A stretch of 32,000 nt of DNA. Origin: Candidatus Electronema aureum (GTDB lineage: Bacteria; Desulfobacterota; Desulfobulbia; Desulfobulbales; Desulfobulbaceae). Shown here in pieces: positions 4,517 through 8,131 of the stretch (position 1 is the first letter of the stretch; each line of letters begins with the position of its first letter). The notes beneath the pieces are model-generated. The model did not search any database, was not told where the DNA came from, and worked only from the letters and a program-made list of their open reading frames with translations. The stretch spans positions 1 through 32,000 of the forward strand of contig NQJD01000017.1 of assembly GCA_004284765.1 (NCBI GenBank), in the 5' to 3' direction. The position numbers and the translations under genes are program-made.

Positions 4517-5460
4517 TTAGTGCTCGCCGATGCCACATTTTTGACAGACGTAATCAGACAGGCGTGCTCAAAGAGGCTCTCCAGCGACGCGCCCGCAGGC
4601 ACGGGGAAGATGGGGAAGTGGTTCTCGCCGAACTTCAGCTTGAGATCGCAGCGCTCAGCCACCTCCATCGTGTTGCTCAGGGCTTCCGGGCACCAGCTGA
4701 ACTGCCGGGCCATCACCTCCGGCGGCTTGAAATACAGCTCGTCGGTGGAGAACTTGAAGCGGCCCGGATCGCTGATCACCTTGCTGGTCTGAATGCAGAG
4801 CAGCACCTCGTGGGCATAGGCCTCGTCCTTGTTCAGGTAGTGGCAGTCGTTGGTGGCGACCAGCTTGATGCCGAGATCATTGCCCAATTCCTGCAAGCCG
4901 ACATTGACCTTTGTCTGCTCCGGGATGCCGTTCTCCTGCACCTCGAAGTAAAGCCTGTCGCCGAAGAGCTGTTGCAGCTCAAGAGCCTTCTGCCGGGCCG
5001 CGTCCATGCCGCTGTGGCTGATCAGCCAAGGCACCTCGCCATGCAAGCAGGCGGAGAGGGCGATCAAGCCTTCGTGATGGCTGGCGAGCAGCTTGCGGTC
5101 AATGCGCGGCTTGTAGTAAAAGCCCGCTGTCTGTGCCACCGAAGCCAGCTTCATCAGATTGCGGTAGCCGTCCTCGTTCATCGCCAGCAGGACGAGGTGG
5201 AAGTTGTGGCCCGCGCTCTTGTCGTGGATGAGATGGTCGGTCTCGGCGATGTACAGCTCGCAGCCGATGATGGGCCGCAGCCCGGCCTTCTTCGCCTTGG
5301 TGTAGAACTCCAGTGCGCCGTACATCGCCCCGTGGTCGGTGACAGCCACGGCGTTCATGCCGTATTCTTTGGTCTTCTCAATCAGGTCGCCGATGCGGAT
5401 GGCACCGTCGAGCATGGAGTACTGCGTGTGGACGTGGAGGTGGGTGAAGGGCTGAGACAT
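4486..5460 (-). pseudogene. dnaE: DNA polymerase III alpha subunit (DnaE) 5' fragment: PHP domain only, about 301 native codons then 23 unrelated codons and a stop
   Basis: MSQPFTHLHVHTQYSMLDGA...AVAVTDHGAMYGALEFY...IIGCELYIAETDH...ATNDCHYL is a canonical DnaE N-terminus. Full-length DnaE is about 1150 aa. Homology ends near 4558 (…SLFEHAC) and the frame closes at 4486. Confidence 0.85.
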
Positions 5461-5466
5461 GAAAAA

Positions 5467-5893
5467 TTATGCGGGGATGATGTCGAAATGCGGGCAATGT
5501 TTCGGGCGGATTGTGCCGAAATCCCGCAAATCAACGGTCAGAATCTTTTGAATGTCCAGCCGTTCCGCCAAAGTGACTATAGCGGCATCGGTGAAATCCA
5601 GTTTTAAATCAGCGTATTGCTCCAGCAGTTCGTGAATGCGGGGCAGATCAGAAGGAAGGATGGAAAGCAGCTCCAGCGGGCTGTCGGCAAGCTGCCGCAC
5701 ACACACATTGGCGCATGGCACTGTGACCAAGGCGGGCAGCGAGGAGATAACTCACTTCCACAAGCACAGGAACAGGCAGGAAAATCTGTTCCATTACTGC
5801 GGGCAATGCCTGCGTCACGCGCAGATGATTCCGATCTTTTGTGTCAATTGTCGCGTAAAGGAACCCGGAATCAAGAATTGCTTTATTGCGCAT
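5467..5893 (-). pseudogene. vapC: PIN-domain (VapC-like) toxin gene, frameshifted
   Basis: Two overlapping ORFs (5648-5893 and 5467-5730) together give a PIN protein: AILDSGFLYATID ... VPVLVEVSYLL ... DFTDAAIVTLAERL ... ILTVDLRDF. The span is 427 nt, which is not a multiple of 3. The frame change falls in the (CA)5/(TG)5 tract at 5698-5707. Confidence 0.75.
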
Positions 5894-5902
5894 GTTTATC
5901 TG

Positions 5903-6109
5903 CTATGTAATCGCTGACGATTTCCTGAACATGCCTGCCATTGAAAGCAAGAATGAGGCATCCGGTGATGGCTGTGCAGCAGGAGTGAGATGATTTTGCA
6001 GATACTGTTCAAGGATAGAATTAACGAGCCGGTCTGCTTTAAGATGCTGCTGTTCAGCGAGCCAGCATATCTGTTGCAGGATGTCTTGACGGATGTTGAG
6101 TGTATTCAT
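5903..6109 (-). CDS. putative antitoxin partner of the PIN gene (68 aa from MNTLNIRQD...)
   Basis: A small ORF whose stop codon (5903-5905) lies 9 nt upstream of the PIN ATG (5893), a typical type II TA layout. The ...FLLSMAGMF... tail resembles VapB-type antitoxin C-termini. I chose ATG 6109 because the 6127 start lies inside the dnaE-derived repeat. Confidence 0.5.
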   Translation of the reverse strand: MNTLNIRQDILQQICWLAEQQHLKADRLVNSILEQYLQNHLTPAAQPSPDASFLLSMAGMFRKSSAIT

Positions 6110-6120
6110 ACTGATTCCTA

Positions 6121-7893
6121 TCAGCAATGTGGAGTCATACTGGGTGTGGACGTGGAGGTGGGTGAAGGAGGGATAGCAAGTGCTTTATGAAATTCTGTAC
6201 GAAGGTCTTGCAGCTTATCGGCAGCGATCTGTCCACCAGTGACAGCCTTGAGAATTTCGATGGGCTTTCTATGCTTATCCGATACTACAGGCAGCAACCC
6301 AAGAAAGGTCTCCAAGCAATCTATGAATTTTACAGGAGCGGAAAGCGTATGACCGTTCTTGGATGCTTCAACGAGATCATTCATAGCACCTTGGTGTTCT
6401 TTGCCGTTGTCATCGTCCAGCATGACACCGTGCGGGATGCCATAAGCCTCCATCAGTGCCATGTAGCGATGCAGATTATACTTTCCTAACGTATCAATGA
6501 TGCAGATATGCTGTGTACTGAGATCGTGCCAGTCGTTAGCCAGCAGGTAGTTGAAAAGGCCGCGCTCTGTTGCACCTTCGACCAAGAGAACTTTATTGGC
6601 AAAGAACAGCGATGAACGTTCTCCATCGAGCCATAGCTGAAAACGGAACTGCTCTTCCTGGGTCGCTATATCGCCTTGTGGTGGATTGGCGATCATCTTG
6701 CGTGCTTTTTTCTTCTTATTTCCCTCCACGTCTGGGTTGTCAACAAAGGCTTGCAACGCAGTCAGCAGCTCGCCACCTTGGTCGAACAATTCCCTAATTT
6801 TGGTGCCCTTGGGCTGGAAGGTTTGCGTCGCGCCGTTGGAACGCTGAACACGGACAAGTTGCCCGATCTGTTCAGCGGCCTTCCCGACAAATGTTGGCGA
6901 GTGCGTGGTGATGATCACTTGCTGACCTTCCTCTGCGCCGAGACGGCGCAAGTGGTAAGCCATGCTTTCCTGCTGGCTCGGATGCAAGAACGCCTCCGGC
7001 TCCTCGAACAGCACAAGGTTGAACGATGGATTGAATTCTTTTTTCCCGCCCTTCTTCTCATCCTTAAAGGTTGGAGCCAGTCGAATCAACTCATAGATCA
7101 CTGAACGCTGAAAACCGTGGCCGTATCGATCAAGGTCAAGGCCGATGTCACCTATTGCCGAATCTATAAAAGCAAACTTGACAAGCGATTTCGAGATATC
7201 TTCAGGTGCAACTGAATTCACTGAGAGATCGATTTTTATGCTCCAGTTTGAAATTGCCGTGTTGAGAGGCTTGGAAATTTCACTCAGGAAACCATCATCT
7301 TTGCGAGCCTCGACGTTTAGTTTCTCGAACGCCGTGGTGATTTCCTTGTAGGCATCACTCTTAGCTACGACCTTTTTCAGCAGGAAGTTGAGCATATTGC
7401 GAAGTGGTGATGGGCCGGTCATCTTCGTTTGCTCGGCTGGTGTGGTCAGTGCTGGCACATACAGAACCTGTCCGACCTTAGCTGTTCCAACGCTCTTTGC
7501 GCCATAAAACAAGGTAGTATGAAGCTGCCCATTGATGAGGCCGAAGATGTTGCTTTGATCTTTCTTGACCCGTTCTTTGTCATCGGACTTGAAATAGCGG
7601 CGAACGGTAAGACTTTTATCGGTAATGCCTTCCTTGTACGCATCGGCAAGGCCAGTCCACTCGTCATCATCAAGGAAAAACTTAAGCTGCACCCATGACT
7701 CGTTGTCAACAGCCCCAGCTTTAGGGAAATCCTCAGGCGACCACTTGGCATCGTCGTAGAACGTGCGCAGCGCGTTGAGAATCGTGCTCTTTCCCGCGTT
7801 ATTTGCACCGACCAGCAGCATGTAGTCGTGCGCTTCAATATCCGCATCAAGAACTGAGCGGAAATTATGGATAGTTATTTGTCGCAGCTTCAT
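6121..7893 (-). CDS. OLD-family nuclease (N-terminal ABC/AAA15-type ATPase plus C-terminal Toprim), 590 aa
   Basis: Walker A GANNAGKST, Walker B LVLFEEPEAFLHP and H-loop ITTHSP. These are followed by Toprim-like VLLVEGATERGLF and MLDDDNG. The size matches standalone OLD proteins. The last ~20 codons (…AIPPSPTSTSTPSMTPHC) read from the dnaE-derived repeat out of frame. Confidence 0.75.
   Translation of the reverse strand: MKLRQITIHNFRSVLDADIEAHDYMLLVGANNAGKSTILNALRTFYDDAKWSPEDFPKAGAVDNESWVQLKFFLDDDEWTGLADAYKEGITDKSLTVRRYFKSDDKERVKKDQSNIFGLINGQLHTTLFYGAKSVGTAKVGQVLYVPALTTPAEQTKMTGPSPLRNMLNFLLKKVVAKSDAYKEITTAFEKLNVEARKDDGFLSEISKPLNTAISNWSIKIDLSVNSVAPEDISKSLVKFAFIDSAIGDIGLDLDRYGHGFQRSVIYELIRLAPTFKDEKKGGKKEFNPSFNLVLFEEPEAFLHPSQQESMAYHLRRLGAEEGQQVIITTHSPTFVGKAAEQIGQLVRVQRSNGATQTFQPKGTKIRELFDQGGELLTALQAFVDNPDVEGNKKKKARKMIANPPQGDIATQEEQFRFQLWLDGERSSLFFANKVLLVEGATERGLFNYLLANDWHDLSTQHICIIDTLGKYNLHRYMALMEAYGIPHGVMLDDDNGKEHQGAMNDLVEASKNGHTLSAPVKFIDCLETFLGLLPVVSDKHRKPIEILKAVTGGQIAADKLQDLRTEFHKALAIPPSPTSTSTPSMTPHC
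6144..6168. repeat. 25-nt perfect direct repeat of the dnaE 5' end (partner at 5426-5450), within about 45 nt of imperfect homology
   Basis: gtgtggacgtggaggtgggtgaagg occurs at both positions. In the dnaE frame it encodes PFTHLHVHT. Flanking ggagt..actg matches extend it to 6125-6168 versus 5411-5450, with indels. Confidence 0.9.
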
Positions 7894-7945
7894 GAGAAAT
7901 CAATATATTGGAAGGGGAAGGCAAGGGAACCGTAATAATACCGCT

Positions 7946-7982
7946 TCGCATCTAACCACCGCCATCAGCTCGTGTCAAGATT
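7946..7982 (-). promoter_or_regulatory. 37-nt bipartite conserved element, copy B (AATCTTGAC-N16-GGTTAGATGCGA)
   Basis: Same two boxes and spacing as 4480-4516. It reads as TTGACA, 17 nt, TTAGAT. It lies 53 nt upstream of the OLD nuclease ATG. Confidence 0.5.
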
Positions 7983-8131
7983 GCACGCCTGCCAGTCTCG
8001 GCGATGTACAGCCCGCCGCCGATGATCGCCTTTGCCTCGCTGCTGAAAAAGTTAATCAATGCGCTGCCCATCCAACTATTTACCACAGCTCCCCGCCCTC
8101 TGCAATCAATGTTGACAGGCAGTGGCTCCAT
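7952..8131 (-). pseudogene. diverged PHP-domain (DnaE-like) remnant, 59 codons
   Basis: Minus-strand translation MEPLPVNIDCRGRGAVVNSWMGSALINFFSSEAKAIIGGGLYIAETG... aligns with DnaE residues ~43-75 (HGAMYGALEFYTKAKKAGLRPIIGCELYIAETD). In the 7995-8026 patch, 30 of 32 nt are identical to 5240-5271. Homology stops at 7994/7995. Confidence 0.6.

What the first reader, a model, noticed from the sequence alone, without database searches (positions are those of the whole stretch)
5411..8131. Three dnaE/PHP-derived fragments interleaved with OLD and TA genes: a mosaic recombination hotspot
Fragment 1 is the 301-codon dnaE 5' part (4558-5460). Fragment 2 is a 25-nt perfect copy of dnaE codons ~4-12 (6144-6168 equals 5426-5450), within about 45 nt of imperfect homology; it lacks the ATG. 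Fragment 3 (7952-8131) is a diverged PHP piece corresponding to DnaE residues ~43-75, with a 30-of-32 nt near-identical patch (7995-8026 versus 5240-5271). The TA module is thus bracketed by direct repeats of the dnaE start, and the OLD gene is bracketed by fragments 3 and 2. Repeated partial duplication of one core gene around different accessory cargos suggests serial integration or excision, or homology-driven cassette exchange, at this locus.
Basis: seen in the sequence. Interest (0 to 1): 0.65.

Follow-up and report, generated by a model that had tools for sequence, protein, structure and literature searches.

The report
Displaced dnaE starts flank defence genes
In the cable bacterium Candidatus Electronema aureum, leftover front ends of the essential DNA polymerase gene dnaE alternate with defence and toxin-antitoxin genes, most likely as scars of repeated recombination with DNA from related strains.

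Summary
F1 is dnaE codons 1-301. F2 is a 31-nt copy of the dnaE start (30/31). F3 has a 32-nt core (30/32). The window comes from the closed genome of Ca. Electronema aureum GS. None of the three pieces is the working gene: the intact dnaE (1617 aa, with an intein) lies about 190 kb away. An IS1-mediated inversion appears to have cut one roughly 21-kb array in two. F1 differs from the resident intact dnaE by 5.5% of bases, almost all synonymous (45 synonymous, 3 non-synonymous codons). It therefore diverged as a working gene in another lineage and is not a decayed local duplicate. In related genomes the same junctions sit next to different cargo: OLD nuclease, an AccI R-M system, a GmrSD-like enzyme, membrane proteins, VapBC and HigBA. 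No integrase and no shared core site was found. Extra fragments occur in 8 of about 10 Electronema sources and in none of about 75 other loci. My best explanation (confidence 0.6) is serial displacement of the dnaE 5' end by homology-anchored recombination. This resembles Rhs/T6SS orphan arrays, mirrored onto the 5' end of an essential gene. It is a new variant of a known kind, of moderate interest.

The parts
1..127 (.). End of an IS1-family element that runs off the left edge of the window. It truncates gene X.
   Evidence: 100% and 99% identical to the two IS1 copies next to the intact dnaE locus (L084 3414-3540 and 4433-4559). The full copy is L082 11161-12077, with InsA/InsB-like ORFs. 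A split 7-bp target duplication, TACGCAG, supports an inversion.
106..264 (-). X': truncated copy (about 47 native codons) of a small conserved gene. In relatives this gene lies just upstream of vapBC-dnaE.
   Evidence: 87-91% aa identity to X in L002, L004 and L007 (two copies). The nucleotide match covers window 127-387. No Pfam family.
655..4474 (-). AT-rich (about 38% GC) four-gene cargo island: 166-aa ORF, 552-aa ORF, SPFH/Band-7 protein and LysM protein. All are co-oriented with the dnaE fragments and lie downstream of P'.
   Evidence: Composition; ORFs; Pfam; no PADLOC hit. The same island follows the same junction in L089 and L083.
4480..4516 (-). P': promoter-like conserved motif (TTGACT, 17 nt, TTAGAT). 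It marks the left boundary of the variable cargo.
   Evidence: Repeat D1; shuffle test. Copies occur in L002, L005, L082, L083 and L084 and in L089, and the L007 variant is visible in the junction alignment. Hexamers and spacer length are conserved and the spacer sequence varies. Similarity between loci stops right after it.
4517..4557 (-). Junction J_B. dnaE homology ends after GCCTG(C/T), followed by about 40 nt of non-dnaE linker.
   Evidence: Alignment of the window, L089, L007 and intact dnaE. The same junction occurs in L007, L083 and L089.
4558..5460 (-). F1: displaced dnaE 5' fragment, codons 1-301 (PHP domain), with the reading frame intact.
   Evidence: 94.5% nt identity to the resident intact dnaE, with 45 synonymous and 3 non-synonymous codon differences.
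5467..5893 (-). vapC (PIN toxin) gene, split by a frameshift into two overlapping ORFs.
   Evidence: Two partial PIN hits. The gene is intact in L007 (140 aa) and reads without a frameshift in L001, where its 5' end runs off the contig.
5903..6127 (-). vapB-like antitoxin gene.
   Evidence: 71% aa identity to the antitoxin upstream of vapC in L007.
6138..6168 (-). F2: remnant of dnaE codons 4-13, with weak similarity to about codon 24 (down to 6116). It has no start codon and overlaps the 3' end of the OLD ORF in another frame.
6121..7893 (-). OLD-family nuclease (ATPase plus TOPRIM) cargo gene. Its last ~4 native codons and stop are replaced by read-through into F2.
   Evidence: Pfam AAA_15 and OLD-like TOPRIM. 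PADLOC 'Old' E=1e-59. 83% aa and 76.5% nt identity to the OLD gene of Xanthomonas plasmid pXAM48; the protein alignment ends at residue 574 of 590.
7946..7982 (-). P: second copy of the promoter-like motif (TTGACA, 17 nt, TTAGAT), about 55 nt upstream of the OLD start codon.
7995..8026 (-). F3 core: remnant of dnaE codons ~64-75, joined to P through a shortened version of the old 'codon ~106 - linker - P' junction seen in relatives.

Best explanation
The three pieces are scars of serial displacement of the dnaE 5' end.

Proposed mechanism. In Electronema, the stretch between a conserved promoter-like motif (P) and the start of the essential dnaE gene holds variable, mostly defence-related cargo, transcribed in the same direction as dnaE. 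DNA from related strains recombines into this stretch. The downstream crossover is homologous and lies inside dnaE. The upstream join can take three forms:
(a) Homologous, in P or an old dnaE remnant. This gives a clean cargo swap.
(b) Homologous but out of register: the donor's dnaE remnant pairs with the resident's intact dnaE. This adds a whole cassette and leaves the resident's own 5' end stranded upstream, ending at the donor's junction.
(c) Illegitimate. This creates a new junction.
Only recombinants that rebuild a complete dnaE survive, so every event leaves a truncated 5' copy and never a deletion.

History in this genome. Such events produced F3-P-OLD-F2-vapBC-F1-P'-island-X... An IS1 then inserted in X, and recombination between two inverted IS1 copies flipped about 190 kb. 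That separated this part of the array from the rest (F4, higBA, P'', intact dnaE).

Shown: the anatomy, the intact gene elsewhere, cargo variation at shared junctions, the synonymous-dominated divergence, the absence of integrases, and the clade restriction.
Inferred: the recombination route, the promoter activity of P, and the order of events.
For: 1. An intact dnaE exists elsewhere in the same chromosome (P0241, 1617 aa; L084 = OW818638.1 1,160,346-1,165,199). The window maps to about 959-980 kb of that record.

2. The intact locus has its own upstream pieces: F4 (codons 1-132 plus 260-280), a higBA pair, a codon 92-106 remnant and a P variant.

3. Inversion. IS1 copies that are 99.6% identical and inverted in the record sit at X'|IS1 and IS1|F4. 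The 7-bp TACGCAG left of one copy equals that right of the other, as an IS1 x IS1 inversion predicts. Undoing the inversion restores the usual order X - vapC end - dnaE start.

4. Xenology. F1 against the resident intact dnaE is 94.5% identical, with 45 synonymous and 3 non-synonymous codon differences. That ratio is like intact-versus-intact pairs between species. F4 and the L001 fragment show the same pattern.

5. Fragments that share junction J_B (window, L007, L089) are no closer to each other (90.5-92.7%) than to intact genes. They are mosaic: the window and L007 fragments are 99% identical over nt ~630-810 next to the junction, but 86-87% over nt ~270-450. This fits fragments that are part resident, part donor.

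6. Same junction, different cargo.
- J_B is followed by the AT-rich island in the window and L089, but by an AccI R-M system in L007.
- The old junction (codon ~106 - linker - P) is followed by OLD (window), a GmrSD/Orf5-like enzyme (L002, L092), a 356-aa membrane protein (L005) and a 236-aa membrane protein (L089).
- L001 has vapBC-dnaE(1-352)-cargo-vapBC'-dnaE start, and its two TA pairs are only about 50-54% identical.

7. At least one join is plainly illegitimate. OLD has lost its last ~4 codons and its stop, and is fused to dnaE codon 4, which has no start codon.

8. No integrase or resolvase was found in any cargo. The junctions lie at six or more different codons (~4, ~38-42, ~106, ~282, 301, 352) with no common core.

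9. Clade restriction. Extra 5' fragments occur in 8 of about 10 Electronema sources and in 0 of about 75 other Desulfobulbaceae, Desulfocapsaceae and Electrothrix loci.
Against: - No recombination intermediate or population variant was observed. Whether cable bacteria take up DNA was not examined.
- Out-of-register and illegitimate recombination are rare events in laboratory systems (as cited in PMC5361080). Six or more junction types at one locus therefore imply strong selection or an unidentified local stimulus.
- How the first dnaE'-P junction arose is unexplained.
- P does not meet the scan tool's sigma-70 criteria, because the -10 lacks A at position 2 in the 17-nt register. Its activity is untested.
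- The split target duplication is only 7 bp, and only one of the two predicted pairs is present. I explain the missing pair by an IS1-adjacent deletion.
- The sliding-window identity profiles along the intact dnaE genes show no clear donor/resident breakpoint.
- The sample is about 10 genomes, and only 10 kb on each side of dnaE was examined.
Confidence: 0.6

Rival explanations
1. Integrase-driven islands target the 5' end of dnaE and carry a replacement 5' end, as dusA-associated islands or SXT in prfC do. The fragments would be displaced attB-side ends left by tandem site-specific integrations.
For: The layout is right: displaced 5' end, then cargo, then a restored gene. The new 5' end is xenologous. 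Islands of this kind are described for dusA (PMC4482086).
Against: No tyrosine or serine recombinase is present in the window, L082, L084, L001, L002, L007 or L089 cargo. The fragments end at six or more different codons with no shared core. The OLD/F2 join destroys both the OLD stop codon and the dnaE start. The cargos are 1-4 genes with no mobility genes.
Confidence: 0.1
2. Local tandem duplication of the dnaE 5' region by unequal crossing-over or replication slippage, followed by decay of the upstream copies and later independent insertion of cargo between them.
For: All fragments are direct repeats. F3 and F2 are heavily decayed. Internal deletions are seen in F4 and in the L007 fragment.
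Against: A decaying duplicate should gather non-synonymous changes and frameshifts. F1 has none in 301 codons, yet it differs from the resident gene at 48 codons, 45 of them synonymous. F1 is about as far from its own genome's dnaE (94.5%) as from other sources' copies (93.4% to sp. JC, 94.1% to the L001 fragment). The two TA pairs flanking the L001 fragment are only about 50-54% identical.
Confidence: 0.12
3. The same displacement process, but triggered by double-strand breaks from intein homing endonucleases inside dnaE. Break repair using foreign or sister templates would co-convert or mis-join the upstream region, which would explain why dnaE in particular is the hotspot.
For: Electronema dnaE carries a LAGLIDADG intein at GYGFNK|C. 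One relative has a second intein at GPGRG|C, about codon 369. The L001 fragment ends at codon 352, about 17 codons upstream of that site. Extra fragments were found only in the Electronema clade, where most dnaE alleles carry an intein.
Against: Ca. Electronema sp. PJ has an intein-free dnaE yet two fragments. Electrothrix gigas has a dnaE intein and an upstream defence island but no fragments. Most junctions lie 1.2-2.3 kb from the main intein site. The codon 352/369 proximity is a single case.
Confidence: 0.1
4. The fragments, at least F1, are kept because they work: as a stand-alone PHP-domain protein, or as a decoy or regulator for the neighbouring defence genes.
For: F1 is an intact 324-codon ORF with a complete PHP domain and no excess of non-synonymous change. 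A 282-aa 'PHP domain-containing protein' is annotated in Ca. Electronema sp. V4, with an accession four numbers from that genome's dnaE.
Against: The L007 fragment, which shares the J_B junction, is frameshifted or deleted at about codon 268. F4 has a 127-codon internal deletion. F2 and F3 are tiny. The C-terminal tails after codon 301 differ between the window, L007 and L089. The synonymous pattern is explained by recent origin from working genes.
Confidence: 0.05
5. Assembly error: repeats collapsed or mis-joined in a metagenome-assembled genome.
For: The genome is a MAG from an enrichment and is rich in insertion sequences (PMC10030654).
Against: The F1/P'/island junction recurs in an independent Logan assembly (L083) and in metagenome contig L089. 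The F1 ORF also occurs on a separate 49,471-nt contig (P0243). Comparable arrays are found in at least six other genomes from different projects.
Confidence: 0.01

Closest known systems
Rhs / CDI / T6SS effector 'displacement' arrays with orphan modules (Kirchberger 2017, PMC5361080; Poole 2011, PMC3150448)
   Same: A conserved gene serves as the homology anchor. Incoming modules from other strains displace the previous end of the gene. That end stays behind as a truncated orphan that keeps a piece of the conserved region. Repeated events build arrays, and whole arrays can then move by ordinary homologous recombination. No integrase is involved. Homology-facilitated illegitimate recombination was proposed for those systems.
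   Different: Here the anchor is the 5' end, not the 3' end. The anchor is an essential housekeeping gene (the replicative polymerase alpha subunit), not a polymorphic toxin. The displaced piece has no evident function, unlike retained immunity genes. The cargo is unrelated to the anchor gene: defence and TA genes.
Genomic islands that integrate in the 5' end of a gene and supply a replacement 5' end (dusA-associated islands, PMC4482086; SXT in prfC, from my own knowledge)
   Same: A truncated original 5' end is left upstream of the cargo, and the gene is restored with a foreign 5' end and promoter.
   Different: Those elements have a dedicated tyrosine integrase, one fixed target site, and excise as circles. 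Here there is no integrase and there are many junction positions. At least one join is illegitimate.
Defence-island hotspots flanked by core genes (own knowledge; papers not consulted here)
   Same: One chromosomal position holds different defence systems in different strains: OLD, R-M, GmrSD-like and TA modules here. Exchange is presumably through the conserved flanks.
   Different: The flank is inside the coding sequence of the neighbouring essential gene. Exchange therefore leaves nested gene fragments, and the cargo sits between a conserved promoter-like motif and that gene.
Integrons
   Same: An ordered array of promoter-proximal cassettes, in which older units are pushed along the array.
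   Different: No intI, attI or attC. The boundaries are dnaE fragments and a promoter-like motif, not recombination sites.

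Membership tests
Integrase-mediated island in the 5' end of a gene (dusA / prfC type) | A tyrosine or serine recombinase gene at one end of each island | tested here: not met
   No such domain in the window ORFs at 655-8131, in the precomputed Pfam hits for L082, L084 and L001, or in the L007, L084, L001 and L089 cargo ORFs. Only IS transposases were found.
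Integrase-mediated island in the 5' end of a gene (dusA / prfC type) | One fixed target site, so that all displaced fragments end at the same core sequence, repeated at both island ends | tested here: not met
   Fragments end at codons ~13/24, ~38-42, ~75/106, ~282, 301 and 352, and the flanking sequences are unrelated.
Integrase-mediated island in the 5' end of a gene (dusA / prfC type) | The target gene is restored by a foreign 5' end | tested here: met
   The intact dnaE and F1 in the same genome differ by 5.5% of bases, almost all synonymous.
Displacement (orphan) arrays of Rhs/CDI/T6SS type | Truncated copies of the conserved part of one gene, in direct orientation next to the full gene, each attached to a different variable module | tested here: met
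   Five dnaE pieces plus the intact gene in Ca. E. aureum after undoing the inversion. Comparable arrays in L001, L002, L007, L085 and L089.
Displacement (orphan) arrays of Rhs/CDI/T6SS type | The anchor gene is a polymorphic toxin whose variable 3' end with its immunity gene is what gets exchanged | tested here: not met
   The anchor is dnaE. The displaced end is the 5' end, and the cargo is unrelated to dnaE.
Homology-facilitated illegitimate recombination product | One homologous join and one illegitimate join | tested here: inconclusive
   The OLD/F2 join is illegitimate: OLD has lost ~4 codons and its stop, and dnaE has lost codons 1-3. Parental sequences for the other junctions are not available, so microhomology could not be scored.
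Homology-facilitated illegitimate recombination product | Acquisition through uptake of foreign DNA (natural transformation or an equivalent) | not testable with these tools
   No experimental system. Competence genes were not surveyed.
Defence island / hotspot | Recognised defence genes at the same locus, differing between strains | tested here: met
   OLD (PADLOC E=1e-59) and a GmrSD/Orf5-like enzyme (E=1e-182). AccI endonuclease plus N6 methylase. VapBC and HigBA. VapBC, type III R-M and DarTG upstream of dnaE in Electrothrix gigas.
Integron | intI integrase, attI site and attC sites bounding the cassettes | tested here: not met
   No integrase. The only repeats at cassette borders are dnaE pieces and P.
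Naturally split dnaE (split intein or separate PHP subunit) | An intein N-fragment after the break, a matching C-terminal gene, and no intact dnaE in the genome | tested here: not met
   The Cys at the break is the native DnaE residue (FEHAC|RDGL). The 24-codon tail is not conserved. An intact 1617-aa dnaE is present.
Sigma-70 promoter (for motif P) | -35 and -10 hexamers at 16-18 nt spacing, conserved while the spacer sequence varies | tested here: inconclusive
   TTGAC(A/T) is perfect or 5/6. The -10 is TTAGAT, TTAAAT or TATAGT. Spacer length is constant and spacer sequence variable. The scan tool did not flag it because there is no A at position 2. Nine unrelated metagenome matches to the pattern came from other contigs; at least four of them sit a few tens of bases upstream of an apparent ribosome-binding site and start codon. 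No expression data.

The most novel reading that the evidence does not exclude
The motif P and the dnaE 5' end together act as an integrase-free cassette-capture platform, a functional analogue of an integron. Under this reading, defence cassettes from other strains are captured by out-of-register homologous recombination against the essential gene. They are transcribed from P together with dnaE. They are hard to lose, because imprecise deletions would remove the promoter or the start of an essential gene. Breaks made by the dnaE intein endonucleases might raise the recombination rate at this locus.
Probability: 0.2. Interest if true: 0.7.

Novelty: new variant of a known kind. Interest (0 to 1): 0.45.

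Why it matters
It shows how a lineage with few classical mobile-element functions at this locus can still gather and swap defence genes. The conserved coding sequence of an essential gene serves as the recombination anchor, and the survival requirement ensures that every event leaves a readable scar. The fragments form a dated, ordered record of gene flow between cable-bacteria strains. They warn annotators that 'PHP domain-containing protein' genes in these genomes are displaced dnaE ends. They also extend the displacement-array idea from the 3' ends of toxin genes to the 5' end of a housekeeping gene. Several cargo genes in these arrays have no known function and are candidates for new defence systems.

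Tried and rejected
- Split intein or split dnaE at codon 301. Rejected: the Cys is native, the tail is not conserved, and an intact dnaE exists.
- Group II or group I intron or another structured RNA at the break. No Rfam hit in the region.
- The 37-nt tail as a decayed piece of dnaE. No significant similarity.
- The tail as an integron attC or a dif-like site. It is too short, no partner site or integrase is present, and the resemblance to GTTRRRY was by eye only.
- The 31-nt repeats (window) and 45-nt repeats (L002) flanking TA modules as long target-site duplications. Rejected after L084 and L092 showed that the left copy belongs to a longer, separate fragment.
- Expectation that the intact dnaE lies just beyond the left edge of the window. 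Wrong: an IS1 and unrelated genes follow.
- Short dnaE-like proteins on long contigs as evidence for widespread split dnaE. Not usable: the hit list is biased toward query-length proteins, and several are frameshifted.
- Sliding-window identity along the intact dnaE genes to find a donor/resident breakpoint. No clear breakpoint.
- Synteny of the window's right flank with the region upstream of dnaE in relatives. None found.
- Phage and plasmid collections. The only substantial match is the OLD gene on Xanthomonas plasmids.
- Literature search for cable bacteria plus dnaE. No paper found.

Full report
**1. Checking the observation**

- F1 (5460->4558, minus strand) encodes DnaE residues 1-301 with a complete PHP domain (Pfam E=1.4e-56; tblastn). 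It then reads 24 unrelated codons to a stop at 4486.
- F2 (6138-6168) matches 5420-5450 at 30 of 31 bases and includes the reported perfect 25-mer. The spacing is 718 nt.
- F3 has a 30/32 core at 7995-8026.
- Within the 32-kb window these matches have E-values of 1.7e-9 and 1e-7.

Two adjustments are needed. First, outside its core (about 48 nt with gaps), the F3 interval 8027-8131 is no more similar to dnaE than shuffled sequence. This is a 37-nt motif at 4480-4516 and 7946-7982, directly downstream of F1 and F3 on the coding strand. None of 100 shuffles gave two matches.

**2. Source organism, and where the working dnaE is**

The F1 sequence is 93-98% identical at the protein level to dnaE of Candidatus Electronema, the freshwater cable bacteria. 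An exact-protein look-up places the window in the closed genome of Ca. Electronema aureum GS (OW818638.1, 2.94 Mb), the strain whose closed genome is described in PMC10030654.

No further dnaE sequence is in the window. None lies in the 9 kb beyond its left edge either. There, a truncated small gene (X') abuts an IS1 element, followed by unrelated genes.

The genome's intact dnaE (1617 aa, with a LAGLIDADG intein) is about 190 kb away on the opposite strand. Its own upstream region carries:
- a further fragment, F4 (codons 1-132 joined to 260-280);
- an inverted higBA pair;
- a remnant of codons 92-106;
- a variant of the 37-nt motif.

**3. An IS1 inversion split one array**

The IS1 at the window's left edge and an IS1 62 nt upstream of F4 are 99.6% identical and inverted relative to each other in the chromosome. 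The 7 bases left of one copy (TACGCAG) equal the 7 bases right of the other. That is the pattern expected after recombination between two inverted copies.

Undoing the inversion joins X' - IS1 - the last codons of a vapC gene - F4. This restores the order X - vapBC - dnaE seen in relatives. The other predicted target-duplication pair is absent. I attribute that to an IS1-adjacent deletion that removed the rest of X and most of vapBC.

The reconstructed array is:
F3-P-OLD-F2-vapBC-F1-P'-(four AT-rich genes)-X'-IS1-vapC'-F4-higBA-remnant-P''-cargo-dnaE.

**4. The fragments are xenologous, not decayed local copies**

Over codons 5-301, F1 differs from the resident intact dnaE at 48 codons, 45 of them synonymous, giving 94.5% nucleotide identity. 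Intact genes of different Electronema species show the same ratio. F1 is about as distant from its own genome's gene as from the copies in sp. JC (93.4%) and L001 (94.1%).

F1 therefore diverged while part of a working gene in another lineage, and was stranded recently.

Fragments that share the F1 junction in other genomes (L007, L089) are no closer to one another than to intact genes, and their differences are again mostly synonymous. Their identity profile is mosaic. The window and L007 fragments are 99% identical over the ~180 nt near the junction but 86-87% identical in the middle.

**5. Same junctions, different cargo**

Six junction types were found.
- J_A: codon ~106 - linker - P. Present in L002, L084, L092 and L089, as a remnant in L005, and further deleted to codon 75 in window F3.
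- J_B: codon 301, GCCTGCC|TGATTACG..., then P'. Present in window F1, L007, L083 and L089.
- J_C: codon ~282 joined to an inverted higBA (L084, L092).
- J_D: codon 352 (L001).
- J_E: OLD 3' end joined to dnaE codon 4 (window F2).
- J_F: codon ~38-42, followed by X-vapBC-dnaE (L004, L007, L085).

Downstream of P the cargo differs between genomes:
- OLD nuclease in the window (PADLOC 'Old' E=1e-59);
- a GmrSD/Orf5-like type IV enzyme in L002 and L092;
- membrane proteins of 356 aa (L005) and 236 aa (L089);
- an AccI restriction-modification pair after J_B in L007;
- the AT-rich four-gene island after J_B in the window and L089.

Similarity between loci stops right after the -10-like element of P.

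**6. At least one join is illegitimate**

The window's OLD protein is 83% identical to the OLD of Xanthomonas plasmid pXAM48 (76.5% at the DNA level). The alignment ends at residue 574 of 590. The native last ~4 codons and the stop are missing, and the ORF reads on through F2 in another frame. In the dnaE frame, F2 has no start codon between an upstream stop and codon 4 (sequence). A clean site-specific or homologous exchange would not produce this.

**7. No dedicated recombinase**

None of the cargo ORFs in the window, L082, L084, L001, L002, L007 or L089 carries an integrase or resolvase domain. The only mobility genes are IS transposases. The junctions share no core sequence.

**8. What P is**

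In five copies the -35-like hexamer TTGAC(A/T), the -10-like hexamer (TTAGAT, TTAAAT, TTATAT) and the spacer length are conserved, while the spacer sequence differs. The L007 copy, seen in the junction alignment, has TATAGT. This is the pattern of a working promoter.

The scan tool does not flag P, because the -10 lacks A at position 2. A metagenome scan with the pattern returned 11 hits. Nine were on unrelated contigs, and at least four of these sit a few tens of bases upstream of an apparent ribosome-binding site and start codon. Two were Electronema arrays.

P is not derived from dnaE. All cargo genes except higBA and the IS elements are co-oriented with dnaE. Co-transcription from P is therefore plausible but untested.

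**9. Distribution**

Extra dnaE 5' fragments within 10 kb upstream of dnaE occur in 8 of about 10 Electronema sources. They are absent from UBA5173 and E. halotolerans. They occur in none of about 75 other Desulfobulbaceae, Desulfocapsaceae or Electrothrix loci. Electrothrix gigas has a co-oriented VapBC - type III R-M - DarTG island right upstream of dnaE, but no fragments.

**10. Mechanism**

The best fit is serial displacement anchored on dnaE homology. Once a dnaE'-P junction exists in the population, a donor segment of the form dnaE'-P-cargo-dnaE has dnaE homology at both ends. It can insert into a resident intact dnaE by two ordinary homologous crossovers, out of register. The effects would be:
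- a cassette is added;
- the resident 5' end is stranded with the donor's junction;
- the body of the fragment is 'refreshed' with functional resident sequence.

This accounts for shared junctions combined with synonymous-dominated, mosaic divergence. New junction types, and joins such as OLD/F2, need occasional illegitimate events.

Selection for an intact essential gene explains why only duplicative outcomes are seen. This is the logic proposed for orphan arrays of Rhs, CDI and T6SS effector loci (PMC5361080; PMC3150448), mirrored onto the 5' end of a housekeeping gene.

Integrase-borne 5'-end replacement, as for dusA islands (PMC4482086), works similarly in outcome, but its defining features were tested here and not met.

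**11. Verdict**

The phenomenon is a lineage-specific variant of known displacement and hotspot processes, not a new kind of system. Interest is moderate (0.45). It would rise if P plus dnaE proved to be a true capture-and-expression platform, or if intein endonucleases drive the process.

Noticed in passing
window 1-127; L082 11161-12077; L084 2627-3540 and 4433-5349: Three nearly identical IS1 copies. Two of them, inverted and about 190 kb apart, carry a split 7-bp target duplication (TACGCAG). This points to a large chromosomal inversion in Ca. E. aureum GS that separated this array from the intact dnaE.
   Followed up: yes
window 6121-7893: The OLD nuclease gene is 76.5% identical in DNA and 83% in protein to an 'AAA family ATPase' on Xanthomonas plasmids (pXAM48 and two X. 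citri plasmids). There it sits between recombinase-family genes. This indicates recent transfer of the gene across phyla.
   Followed up: partly
window 655-4474: An AT-rich (38% GC) four-gene unit (166-aa, 552-aa, SPFH/Band-7 and LysM proteins) with no PADLOC match. It is conserved as a block in L083 and L089 and sits in a defence-cargo slot, so it is a candidate uncharacterised defence system.
   Followed up: partly
window 5467-5893: The vapC (PIN) toxin gene is frameshifted, while the antitoxin gene looks intact. The orthologue is intact in L007, and the L001 copy, cut by the contig start, shows no frameshift.
   Followed up: partly
window 106-387; L002 4103-4501; L007 1339-1725 and 5997-6425; L004 8632-8982: A small conserved gene (X, about 130 aa, no Pfam family) lies upstream of vapBC-dnaE in several Electronema genomes and is duplicated along with the dnaE fragments.
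   Followed up: partly
L002, L005, L084 and L085 dnaE (intein at GYGFNK|C); L003 ~11090-12380 (second intein at GPGRG|C); L007 7235-10735 (no intein): Electronema dnaE alleles differ in intein content: none, one (full-size with LAGLIDADG, or a mini-intein in E. halotolerans), or an additional intein near codon 369 in UBA5173.
   Followed up: partly
L098 2817-9971: In Electrothrix gigas a co-oriented VapBC - PD-(D/E)XK - methylase - ResIII (type III R-M) - DarT/DarG island sits directly upstream of dnaE, without dnaE fragments. The DarT ORF is only 49 aa.
   Followed up: no
L003 4065-8976: Three large genes lie upstream of dnaE in UBA5173. By reading their translations (no domain search was run), one has an SGGKDS motif, as in PAPS-reductase/DndC-type enzymes, and one begins like an SMC/DndD-type ATPase. 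The third (508 aa) was not identified. This may be a Dnd/Ssp-like defence system in the same slot.
   Followed up: no
L082 12259-12291 versus L084 2144-2176: A 33-nt copy (94%) of the ilvD 3' end lies about 180 nt beyond the IS1 in L082. ilvD is also found about 9 kb upstream of dnaE in Electrothrix gigas. Unexplained.
   Followed up: no
first 150 nt of dnaE in L005 compared with the other Electronema loci: The first 150 nt of dnaE are 95-97% identical even between species that are otherwise only ~80-90% identical along the gene. The cause could be strong constraint on the PHP motif or recombination-driven homogenisation of the 5' end.
   Followed up: no
window 28406-28580 and 15184-15255: A cobalamin riboswitch and a tRNA gene, both on the minus strand, unrelated to the finding.
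   Followed up: no
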